Origin: Lachnospiraceae bacterium 48-33 | Lineage (GTDB): Bacteria; Bacillota; Clostridia; Lachnospirales; Lachnospiraceae | Assembly (NCBI GenBank): GCA_041223485.1 | Contig: JBCLQI010000005.1 | Length of the DNA stretch: 64,000 nucleotides | Strand: one strand, 5' to 3' | Part shown: in pieces, positions 42,448-43,700 of the stretch | Position numbering within the stretch: the first letter of the stretch is position 1 | Layout: each line of letters opens with the position of its first letter | The notes under the pieces: generated by a model | Seen by the model: the letters and a program-made list of their open reading frames with translations, nothing else | Databases searched by the model: none | Told to the model about the DNA's origin: nothing | Position numbers and translations under genes: made by a program

Positions 42448-43116
42448 TTAATAAATATTCATATCTATCATAGTCAAAAATTCTTCTCCTAGTTCTTCCA
42501 TCTCCAGATTTCCATGATACTTTTCCACGCATTCCCTGACATTTTCCATTCCAATTCCATGATTTTCCATGTCCTCTTTTGTTGTAAGATATTTTCCATT
42601 CTTTTTCTTTCGCTTCCCTTCATAATCATTTTTCATATAAATCATCATCACATTATCTTCATAACCTACTGTCAGTTCTATACGTCTCTGTCTGCTGCTT
42701 TTTGCCGCTTCTATTCCGTTTTTCAAAAGATTTGCAAAAATCACACAAAGGTCATAGGAAGATACCACAGAGTCTGCCGGCATTTGTCCCTTTATTTTTA
42801 ACTGTATTCCCAGCTCTTCTGCTTGTAACATATATTGATTTAATATCACATCAACCTCTTTATTATGTACAGTTACCCTCTTTTCCTCCATGTGTGTCTG
42901 AACATTTATCTCTTTTATATATTCTTTTAATTTCTGATTTCCTTCTGTTTCACAATATTTTTGTATTATCAGCATATGCTCTTTCATATCATGGCGAAAT
43001 TTCCTGATATCCTGCTCTCTTTCCTCTTTTTCACCCCTAATGAAACCTTTTTTCCATTCTTTAAAAAGATTTTTTTTGCTGCTTCGATTCCATCTGAACT
43101 TACTTTTTCCACCCAA
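42448..43116 (-). CDS. Histidine-kinase-like protein (DHp plus GHKL ATPase, LytS/AgrC type) lacking any transmembrane sensor domain
   Basis: H-box RHDMKEHML, N-box IFANLLKNGIEA, G-box HGIGMENV. Only ~220 aa with no hydrophobic segments. The longest ORF overlaps the response regulator's 3' end by 133 nt, so the real start lies inside that overlap. Confidence 0.65.
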   Translation of the reverse strand: MGGKSKFRWNRSSKKNLFKEWKKGFIRGEKEEREQDIRKFRHDMKEHMLIIQKYCETEGNQKLKEYIKEINVQTHMEEKRVTVHNKEVDVILNQYMLQAEELGIQLKIKGQMPADSVVSSYDLCVIFANLLKNGIEAAKSSRQRRIELTVGYEDNVMMIYMKNDYEGKRKKKNGKYLTTKEDMENHGIGMENVRECVEKYHGNLEMEELGEEFLTMIDMNIY

Positions 43117-43700
43117 TCCAAATTTACCAGAACAGATTTGTTACTGCGGTAAAATCCATCTTCTTTCAGCCGTTTAGTCAGTTCTGTAATTTTTTCCTCT
43201 GCTGTATAATCCTGTTTTGTTGTATGAAAAATTACCTTTCGTTCCTGTTTGATTGTTTCAATATAAATAATATCTTTATATACCAGCATTACTTTTCCCT
43301 GTTTTGGAACATGAACCTCTATTGTCTGATATCTCCGAAGTTTTGTCAGAGCATGTTCTAATCCCTCCTGCATCTCTTCTTTCAGATTATCCTTCTCAAT
43401 AAACCGAAATGCCTCTACTTTATAACCTTCTCTACAATATTCTTTATATGAGGTTACAATCATAACAATACTCTTGGAAAACTGCGATTTATACTCTATT
43501 GTCGCTTCAAGACCGCTGATTCCATTTAAATAAATATCCATAAATACAATTTGATACTCTTTTCCGGCCTCTAAAAATTCCTCCGCAGAACTGTAAATTT
43601 CTATCTCTGTTTGCTCCTTTTTTAAGGTTTGCTGTATCACATTTTTCATTTTTTCTGTCCATTCTTTTGCATCTTCTACAATTGCAATGTTCATCTTCAT
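42984..43700 (-). CDS. LytTR-family response regulator
   Basis: Receiver domain (IAIVEDA...FMDIYL) plus a C-terminal LytTR DNA-binding domain (KDIIYIE...FYRSNKSVLVNL). Confidence 0.85.
   Translation of the reverse strand: MKMNIAIVEDAKEWTEKMKNVIQQTLKKEQTEIEIYSSAEEFLEAGKEYQIVFMDIYLNGISGLEATIEYKSQFSKSIVMIVTSYKEYCREGYKVEAFRFIEKDNLKEEMQEGLEHALTKLRRYQTIEVHVPKQGKVMLVYKDIIYIETIKQERKVIFHTTKQDYTAEEKITELTKRLKEDGFYRSNKSVLVNLDWVEKVSSDGIEAAKKIFLKNGKKVSLGVKKRKESRISGNFAMI

What the first reader, a model, noticed from the sequence alone, without database searches (positions are those of the whole stretch)
42448..43700. Sensor-less histidine kinase core next to transporter genes, suggesting transporter-coupled sensing
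The kinase partner of the LytTR regulator is only ~220 aa (H-box RHD, N-box and G-box present) and has no hydrophobic segment. Typical LytTR-partner kinases of the AgrC/ComD type carry a 5-7-helix membrane sensor. The longest ORF overlaps the regulator's 3' end by 133 nt in another frame. The kinase may sense through the FtsX-type transporter, as BceS senses through BceAB. Alternatively it may respond to a cytoplasmic cue, or it may be a decayed gene that leaves the regulator orphaned.
Basis: partly seen in the sequence, partly recalled or inferred. Interest (0 to 1): 0.55.

Follow-up and report, generated by a model that had tools for sequence, protein, structure and literature searches.

The report
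Kinase gene stump left by deletion
The "sensor-less kinase" is the leftover 3' half of an ordinary membrane quorum-sensing-type histidine kinase gene, created by a 770-base deletion that sibling strains lack; this is routine gene decay, not a new way of sensing.

Summary
The sequence description holds. A 222-codon ORF (43116..42448, minus strand) carries an RHD H-box and a GHKL ATPase domain. It has no hydrophobic segment and overlaps the LytTR regulator gene by 133 nt.

The ORF is a deletion product. Conspecific contigs that are about 99.3-99.8% identical and collinear (L001, L018-L023) carry 770 extra bases exactly at window 43022-43017, bounded by a 6-nt microhomology (AAAGAG). Those bases encode the regulator's last 15 codons, a 22-nt spacer and the first ~233 codons of a 422-aa AgrC-like kinase, including every transmembrane segment.

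The only plausible start of the stump is an ATG that overlaps the regulator's new stop codon (ATGA) and lies two codons after the phospho-acceptor histidine. Any product (179 aa) would therefore be a histidine-less ATPase domain.

The deleted allele is real. It is identical in 14 fetched loci from separately deposited assemblies, and the stump protein is recorded on 260 contigs. It sits on a single clonal background and has no mutations since the deletion. Intact 422-aa alleles are recorded on about 200 contigs.

Transporter-coupled (BceS-like) sensing is not supported. Interest is low.

The parts
42984..43694 (-). LytTR-family response regulator gene (236 aa from the ATG at 43694; the 238-aa ORF starts at 43700). 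Residues 1-226 are native. The last 10 codons (SRISGNFAMI, 43016-42987) plus the stop are kinase DNA read out of frame, and they replace the native 15-residue tail LMMKLYEWRLKQINQ.
   Evidence: Pfam Response_reg plus LytTR. The LytTR match reaches profile position 92/98 here and 97/98 in the intact allele. Translations of window and L001 are compared. tblastn aligns intact regulator residues 1-226 to 43694-43017. GGAGG lies 7 nt before the ATG at 43694 and only 1 nt before the ATG at 43700. NCBI calls the 236-aa form MEY8329384.1.
43017..43022 (-). Deletion junction: the 6-nt microhomology AAAGAG (minus strand). It extends to 9 of 10 nt, GAG[G/A]AAAGAG, in L019-type intact alleles. 770 bp present in intact alleles are missing here.
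   Evidence: BLAST of L001, L019 and L020 against the window: the left block ends at 43017, the right block starts at 43022/43026, and 770 nt (L001 9931-10700) are unmatched. The junction string is identical in L004-L017.
42988..43016 (-). Kinase-derived DNA upstream of the stump's start codon. In the kinase frame it encodes ...REQDIRKFRHD, with the phospho-acceptor His codon at 42993-42991, but it is now translated in the regulator's frame.
   Evidence: 100% identical to L001 10701-10797, which is the DHp H-box of the intact 422-aa kinase (residues ~234-243).
42448..42987 (-). Kinase stump: a 179-codon ORF equal to residues 244-422 of the intact 422-aa kinase (the rest of DHp plus the HATPase_c_5 catalytic domain). 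Its ATG overlaps the regulator's TGA (ATGA). It lacks the membrane sensor and the phospho-acceptor His242.
   Evidence: P0011 ends with P0010 starting at residue 244. Pfam HATPase_c_5 at 77-175 of the stump. Gene callers annotate exactly this ORF on 260 contigs, e.g. MEY8329383.1 'ATP-binding protein'.
43023..43116 (-). Spurious 5' extension of the 222-aa ORF: regulator coding sequence read in the +1 frame from a TTG that has no Shine-Dalgarno sequence.
   Evidence: In intact alleles this DNA is regulator coding sequence only. The sequence upstream of the TTG is TCTGTTCTGGTAAATTTGGA, with no purine-rich ribosome-binding site. The 222-aa form was called on only 3 contigs, against 260 for the 179-aa form.
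42365..42393 (-). Strong sigma-70-like promoter match (TTGACA-17-TATATT, 11 of 12) between the stump and the first 138-aa gene.
   Evidence: The block is partly conserved upstream of the orthologous gene in L003. This is a consensus match only, with no functional evidence.
34945..42073 (-). Downstream same-strand cluster, the presumed target or neighbour of the two-component system. It holds two diverged tandem copies of a three-gene module (138/137-aa signal-peptide protein, 275-282-aa single-TM protein, 416-aa 4-TM FtsX/MacB-type permease), then a 195-aa FtsX-like protein and a 220-aa ABC ATPase.
   Evidence: ORFs. Pfam FtsX and ABC_tran. TM counts. The same gene order follows the intact kinase in L019 and L020.

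Best explanation
The ORF is the 3' remnant of an ordinary AgrC/ComD-like (HPK10-type, HATPase_c_5) membrane histidine kinase gene.

Shown:
- One 770-bp deletion between two AAAGAG microhomologies removed the last 15 codons of the upstream LytTR regulator gene, the 22-nt spacer and the first ~233 codons of the kinase gene. That region includes every membrane segment.
- Because 770 is not a multiple of 3, the regulator now reads into kinase DNA out of frame for 10 codons and stops at a TGA.
- The kinase frame is left with one plausible start, an ATG overlapping that TGA, two codons after the phospho-acceptor histidine.

Inferred:
- If anything is translated, by termination-reinitiation at ATGA, it is a 179-aa soluble, histidine-less half-DHp plus ATPase domain. 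It cannot receive a signal or autophosphorylate at the canonical site.
- The regulator has lost its partner kinase and about 5 terminal positions of its LytTR domain, so the locus is probably signal-blind and stuck at basal output.
- The allele is young, of single origin and carried by one widely sampled clone. Other strains of the same species keep the intact system.
For: 1. Contig L001 is 99.57% identical to window 52500-43017. It then carries 770 extra nt and rejoins the window at 100% identity.
2. Five further conspecific loci (L019-L023) have the same intact arrangement; L019 and L020, the two long enough to show it, have exactly the window's downstream gene order. A sixth intact locus, L018, has different downstream content.
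3. The full-length kinase rebuilt from the L001 N-terminus plus the window C-terminus exists verbatim as P0011 (422 aa, 25 contigs, NCBI 'GHKL domain-containing protein'). Nine further listed members of the same 90% cluster are 422 aa and one is 420 aa.
4. A related Lachnospiraceae MAG (L003) encodes a 422-aa orthologue at 82% identity over residues 1-421.
5. P0011 has 5 or more hydrophobic segments, all within residues 1-203. The window ORF has none.
6. The stump equals P0011 residues 244-422, and His242 of FRHD lies upstream of its ATG. AgrC's phospho-histidine His239 is likewise preceded by an Arg (PMC10482373).
7. This is not an assembly artefact. The junction is identical in 14 of 14 deleted-type loci fetched from separately deposited assemblies, and ten Logan contigs are 100% identical to the window.
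8. Single young origin: there are 0 differences over 9 kb upstream among deleted loci, apart from an N-run in L007, against 22-62 differences to intact loci. There are 0 differences in the 1 kb after the junction relative to intact L019 and L022.
Against: There are no expression or phosphorylation data, so the functional consequences (orphaned regulator, basal output) are inferred. The stump and the re-tailed regulator remain open reading frames with an ATGA overlap, so a product is possible. The deleted allele is very common in public data (260 contigs against about 200 for the listed intact variants). That could reflect selection rather than heavy sampling of one clone. The allele is too young for its sequence to show whether the stump is under constraint.
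Confidence: 0.93

Rival explanations
1. A naturally sensor-less kinase that receives its signal through the neighbouring FtsX/ABC transporter, as in BceS-BceAB flux sensing.
For: The kinase core is near FtsX permease and ABC ATPase genes on the same strand.
Against: The absence of a sensor is a strain-specific 770-bp deletion. Intact alleles with a polytopic sensor sit in front of the very same transporter genes. The regulator is LytTR, not OmpR-type. The kinase has HATPase_c_5 and no HisKA. The permeases have 4 TM, not the 10 of BceB. The phospho-acceptor His lies outside the likely translated product.
Confidence: 0.02
2. The truncation is an assembly or sequencing artefact of this one genome.
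For: Assembly artefacts do occur in this dataset: contig L001 ends in Illumina adapter sequence.
Against: The same junction appears in 14 loci from separately deposited assemblies, comprising NCBI MAG or isolate assemblies and ten Logan assemblies of different sequencing runs, all 100% identical across the junction. The stump protein is recorded on 260 contigs.
Confidence: 0.01
3. The stump is expressed by ATGA translational coupling and has a retained or new role. For example, a His-less ATPase or half-DHp domain might bind the regulator or another HPK10 kinase, and the deletion allele might be positively selected as a 'signal-blind' variant.
For: Both ORFs are intact, and the stop and start overlap as ATGA. 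The allele is the most frequently recorded form in public data. A related species (L003) and one conspecific strain (L018) carry a second paralogous LytTR/kinase pair, so cross-talk partners exist in this lineage.
Against: No mutations have accumulated since the deletion, so open frames carry no information about constraint. All deleted loci share one clonal background, which fits sampling of a single successful clone. No paralogous kinase or regulator lies in the 64-kb window. There is no good Shine-Dalgarno sequence before the ATG.
Confidence: 0.06
4. The 222-aa ORF is translated from the TTG at 43116 and works as a soluble cytoplasmic kinase that still contains His42.
For: The frame is open from the TTG, and the H, N and G boxes are all in frame.
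Against: There is no ribosome-binding site before the TTG. The start lies inside the regulator coding sequence, and the first ~31 residues are out-of-frame regulator sequence with no homology to any kinase. DHp helix 1 is cut: the SPOB_a match begins at profile position 16, whereas in the intact protein it begins at position 1.
Confidence: 0.02

Closest known systems
AgrC/AgrA of Staphylococcus aureus (HPK10 kinase plus LytTR regulator) and its natural agr-null alleles
   Same: The ancestral gene pair has the same architecture: a polytopic N-terminal sensor, a DHp with an R-H-D H-box, a GHKL catalytic domain and an adjacent LytTR regulator (PMC10482373). Natural loss-of-function alleles that segregate within a species are well documented for agr: more than 5% of 40,000 genomes carry frameshifts (PMC8768832).
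   Different: The regulator gene precedes the kinase gene, and no agrB/agrD-like genes were seen next to the pair. The lesion is one 770-bp microhomology deletion spanning both genes, not a frameshift. In public data it is about as common as the intact form, whereas agr frameshifts are described as short-lived. Sequence similarity to AgrC is weak (NCBIfam 22 bits against a cut-off of 500).
BceRS-BceAB type transporter-coupled (flux) sensing
   Same: Only the proximity of a two-component system to an FtsX-domain ABC transporter.
   Different: The regulator is LytTR rather than OmpR-type. The kinase has HATPase_c_5 without HisKA. The ancestral kinase has 5-7 membrane segments rather than a 2-TM intramembrane-sensing form. 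The permeases have 4 TM (MacB-like) rather than the 10 TM of BceB. The description of Bce features rests on established knowledge of that family.
ComD/ComE, BlpH/BlpR and PlnB/PlnCD peptide-pheromone systems that control bacteriocin or competence loci
   Same: An HPK10-like kinase with a LytTR regulator sits upstream of genes for small secreted proteins and an ABC transporter.
   Different: No double-glycine pheromone or bacteriocin precursor and no peptidase-domain exporter was found. The secreted 138-aa proteins belong to a narrow family of unknown function, with only 6 close homologues and no Pfam match.

Membership tests
HPK10 / AgrC-type sensor histidine kinase (applied to the window ORF) | N-terminal polytopic membrane sensor module (5-7 TM) | tested here: not met
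   No hydrophobic segment in the window ORF (maximum Kyte-Doolittle score 1.18). The intact allele P0011 has 5 or more segments within residues 1-203, all inside the deleted DNA.
HPK10 / AgrC-type sensor histidine kinase (applied to the window ORF) | Complete DHp domain with the phospho-acceptor His inside the translated protein | tested here: not met
   The His codon (42993-42991) lies upstream of the only credible start, the ATG at 42987. The upstream TTG has no ribosome-binding site. The SPOB_a match starts at profile position 16 here and at position 1 in the intact protein. Translation itself was not measured.
HPK10 / AgrC-type sensor histidine kinase (applied to the window ORF) | GHKL catalytic domain of the HATPase_c_5 type with N and G boxes | tested here: met
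   PF14501, E = 1.4e-24, residues 120-218.
HPK10 / AgrC-type sensor histidine kinase (applied to the window ORF) | Adjacent cognate LytTR-family response regulator | tested here: met
   Response_reg plus LytTR in ORF 43694..42984, though with a replaced C-terminal tail.
BceS-BceAB transporter-coupled sensing module | Intramembrane-sensing kinase with two TM helices and a HisKA-type DHp | tested here: not met
   Zero TM segments in the window ORF and 5 or more in the ancestral form. No HisKA match, only HATPase_c_5 and SPOB_a.
BceS-BceAB transporter-coupled sensing module | OmpR-family (Trans_reg_C) response regulator | tested here: not met
   The regulator has a LytTR output domain.
BceS-BceAB transporter-coupled sensing module | BceB-type permease with 10 TM and a large extracellular domain between TM7 and TM8 | tested here: not met
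   The 416-aa permeases have 4 hydrophobic segments with the large loop after TM1 (MacB-like). The 195-aa protein has 3 hydrophobic segments above the threshold and matches FtsX only weakly (17.8 bits, below the 25.5 cut-off).
BceS-BceAB transporter-coupled sensing module | Physical kinase-permease complex | not testable with these tools
   Needs two-hybrid or co-purification experiments.
Deletion-derived gene remnant (pseudogene-like allele) | A collinear intact allele in conspecific genomes, with the missing DNA internal to the genes | tested here: met
   L001 and L018-L023 are 99.3-99.8% identical in the flanks and carry 770 extra nt at the junction.
Deletion-derived gene remnant (pseudogene-like allele) | A junction signature and frame disruption consistent with a single deletion event | tested here: met
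   6-nt microhomology AAAGAG at both ends. 770 is not divisible by 3, so the regulator frame runs into kinase DNA out of frame. The junction is identical in all 14 deleted loci.
Deletion-derived gene remnant (pseudogene-like allele) | Loss of function of the product | not testable with these tools
   Inferred from loss of the sensor, of DHp helix 1 and of the His codon. No expression or activity data are available.

The most novel reading that the evidence does not exclude
The 770-bp deletion may be an adaptive 'signal-blind' allele rather than neutral decay. On this reading it has spread with one very successful gut Lachnospiraceae clone, leaving a regulator freed from pheromone control and a translationally coupled, His-less ATPase stub that may still bind the regulator or a paralogous kinase. 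It would be a stable quorum-sensing cheater polymorphism in a gut commensal.
Probability: 0.07. Interest if true: 0.4.

Novelty: new member of a known kind. Interest (0 to 1): 0.15.

Why it matters
Mostly as a caution. A short soluble kinase next to a LytTR regulator looks like an unusual signalling design, and NCBI names it 'ATP-binding protein' with no name-level indication of truncation, yet comparison with sibling strains shows plain gene decay. A secondary point: the species carries a common presence/absence polymorphism for a putative peptide-sensing kinase. That would give a natural pair of strains for testing what this regulator and the uncharacterised secreted-protein/FtsX cluster do in the gut.

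Tried and rejected
- A metagenome-contig scan with a 31-nt pattern from the regulator's 3' end, common to both alleles, found nothing.
- The genome-contig scan found only one related species and not the window's own species.
- PDB sequence searches with the intact kinase and with the 138-aa protein gave no usable hit.
- The AlphaFold2 model of the 138-aa secreted protein, built from a 2-sequence alignment, was of low confidence (pLDDT 48.7, all-beta), so no fold search was run.
- The homologue search for the 138-aa protein returned only 6 close, unnamed relatives.
- No small double-glycine-type peptide ORF was seen between the stump and the first 138-aa gene.
- Short direct repeats that could mark LytTR boxes were not found convincingly by the repeat finder. 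A conserved ACTGGT/CCTGGT pair seen in an alignment was not pursued.
- A literature search for 'Lachnospiraceae bacterium 48-33' returned nothing.
- I considered and rejected programmed frameshifting that would fuse regulator and kinase. The out-of-frame overlap is fully explained by the deletion, and intact alleles have separate genes with a 22-nt spacer.

Full report
**Observation**

On the minus strand a LytTR response-regulator ORF (43700..42984) is followed by a 222-codon ORF (43116..42448, TTG start) that overlaps it by 133 nt in another frame. Pfam assigns Response_reg plus LytTR to the first. To the second it assigns HATPase_c_5 (residues 120-218, E = 1.4e-24) plus a weak SPOB_a/DHp match. 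The RHD H-box, N-box and G-box are readable in the translation. No 19-residue window is hydrophobic enough for a membrane helix (maximum Kyte-Doolittle score 1.18).

**What it is**

A homologue search returned P0003, a protein with a multi-helix hydrophobic N-terminus that ends in a sequence 97% identical to the window's H-box region. Its contig L001 is syntenic with the window, sharing the peptidase M18, GlgB, MscS, argininosuccinate lyase and LytTR regulator genes.

BLAST shows L001 447-9930 matching window 52500-43017 at 99.57%. Then 770 nt are absent from the window. Then L001 10695-10797 matches window 43022-42920 at 100%. The two blocks overlap by the 6 nt AAAGAG, which is present at both ends of the missing segment in L001. 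In L019-type alleles the similarity is 9 of 10 nt.

The missing DNA comprises the last 15 codons of the 241-aa regulator, a 22-nt spacer and the first ~233 codons of the kinase. L001 itself stops in Illumina adapter sequence, so P0003 is artificially short. However, the full kinase rebuilt from the L001 N-terminus plus the window C-terminus exists verbatim in public data as P0011 (422 aa, 25 contigs, 'GHKL domain-containing protein'). It shares a 90% cluster with nine further listed 422-aa variants and one 420-aa variant.

Loci L019 and L020 carry regulator(241)-kinase(422) followed by exactly the window's downstream genes, in the order 138, 275, 416, 137, 273, 416, 195, 220, 144 and 451 aa. 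They align to the window at 99.3-99.6% on both sides of the 770-nt gap. A related Lachnospiraceae MAG (L003) has a 422-aa orthologue at 82% identity over residues 1-421. All hydrophobic segments of P0011 lie within residues 1-203, inside the deleted part.

**Consequences for the two genes**

The regulator keeps residues 1-226 and gains a foreign 10-residue tail (SRISGNFAMI) in place of LMMKLYEWRLKQINQ. Its LytTR match now ends at profile position 92/98 rather than 97/98.

In the kinase frame, the stretch from the TTG at 43116 down to 43023 is out-of-frame regulator sequence. The TTG has no Shine-Dalgarno sequence. The first ATG in frame (42987) overlaps the regulator's TGA as ATGA and lies two codons after the FRHD histidine, which is His242 of the intact protein. 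This histidine corresponds to AgrC His239, which is likewise preceded by an Arg (PMC10482373).

Gene callers chose this 179-aa ORF on 260 contigs and the 222-aa ORF on 3. Any product is therefore a soluble, His-less fragment: part of DHp plus the ATPase domain. That this leaves the regulator orphaned and the locus signal-blind is an inference from the domain logic of two-component systems. It was not measured.

**Is the deletion real, and how old is it?**

The exact re-tailed regulator is recorded on 95 contigs (236-aa call) and 116 contigs (238-aa call). All 14 deleted-type loci fetched from separately deposited assemblies have the identical junction. Ten Logan contigs from different sequencing runs are 100% identical to the window across it.

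The deleted loci show 0 differences over 9 kb upstream, apart from an N-run in L007. They differ from intact loci at 22-62 sites. The 1 kb after the junction is identical to intact L019 and L022. This indicates one recent event in one widely sampled clone. The open state of the stump therefore says nothing about selection. NCBI names the two genes 'LytTR family DNA-binding domain-containing protein' and 'ATP-binding protein' of Lachnospiraceae bacterium 48-33.

**Comparison with known systems**

The ancestral pair fits the HPK10/LytTR (AgrCA, ComDE-like) architecture. The window copy fails the sensor and His/DHp criteria.

The BceRS-AB model fails on every feature that could be tested. The regulator is LytTR, not OmpR-type. 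There is no HisKA domain. The kinase has no 2-TM form. The permeases have 4 TM and look MacB-like, not the 10-TM BceB type.

Natural null alleles of such quorum-sensing-type systems are a known phenomenon. In S. aureus, agr frameshifts occur in more than 5% of genomes and are described as short-lived (PMC8768832). The only mildly unusual point here is how often the deleted allele appears in public data: 260 contigs against roughly 200 for the listed intact variants. Clonal over-sampling would explain that.

**What the system controls**

This remains unknown. The 138/137-aa signal-peptide proteins have no Pfam, NCBIfam or PDB match and only 6 close homologues. Their AlphaFold2 model is of low confidence.

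**Verdict**

This is an ordinary deletion remnant, not a new sensing design.

Noticed in passing
L001:10798-10841: The contig ends in Illumina TruSeq adapter sequence (AGATCGGAAGAGCACACGTCTGAACTCCAGTCAC). This creates a false stop codon and an artificially truncated 265-aa kinase entry (P0003) in the protein database.
   Followed up: yes
window 41493-39290 and 38375-36177: There is a tandem duplication of a three-gene module (138/137-aa secreted protein, ~275-aa single-TM protein, 416-aa FtsX permease). The copies are only about 88-90% identical, so the duplication is old. Copy number varies between strains: L005 has a single copy on an otherwise identical deleted-allele background.
   Followed up: partly
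L018:11775-21143: One intact-allele strain has different DNA after the kinase: an IS200-type Y1 transposase gene, an OmpR-type two-component system, two FtsX/MacB permeases, an ABC ATPase and a second LytTR regulator/421-aa kinase pair. The locus is therefore a hotspot of rearrangement.
   Followed up: no
L003:85-4922: The related species (MAG MGBC130214) has two tandem paralogous LytTR regulator/kinase pairs (422 and 426 aa) in front of a single copy of the secreted-protein/FtsX module.
   Followed up: no
L002:580-582: A 1.8x-coverage contig of the L003-like species has a TTA to TAA change that splits the kinase into 193-aa and 147-aa ORFs. It could be a sequencing error or a second, independent null allele.
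   Followed up: partly
window 42140-42300 and 39100-39260 (upstream of the two 138/137-aa genes): Sequence blocks are conserved among both window copies and L003, including GACTGACTGGT ... ACCTGGTTTAGAAGAAA (ACTGGT and CCTGGT about 20 nt apart) and GATTTGACTG. These could be LytTR-type direct-repeat boxes. A strong sigma-70-like match lies at 42393..42365.
   Followed up: no
window 32000-44000: G+C is 0.28-0.32 here against 0.36-0.42 in the flanking sequence. The low-GC block covers the whole regulator, stump, secreted-protein and FtsX/ABC cluster, plus a 144-aa secreted protein and a 451-aa lipoprotein-like ORF. This suggests an accessory island.
   Followed up: no
window 41657-42073 and 38612-39025: The 138/137-aa signal-peptide proteins form a very narrow family (6 close homologues, all unnamed or hypothetical) with no Pfam, NCBIfam or PDB match. 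AlphaFold2 predicts an all-beta fold, but only at pLDDT 48.7.
   Followed up: partly
L007:5094-7287: The GlgB gene appears split (616 + 123 aa) in this MAG because of a run of N (a scaffold gap), not a real mutation.
   Followed up: yes
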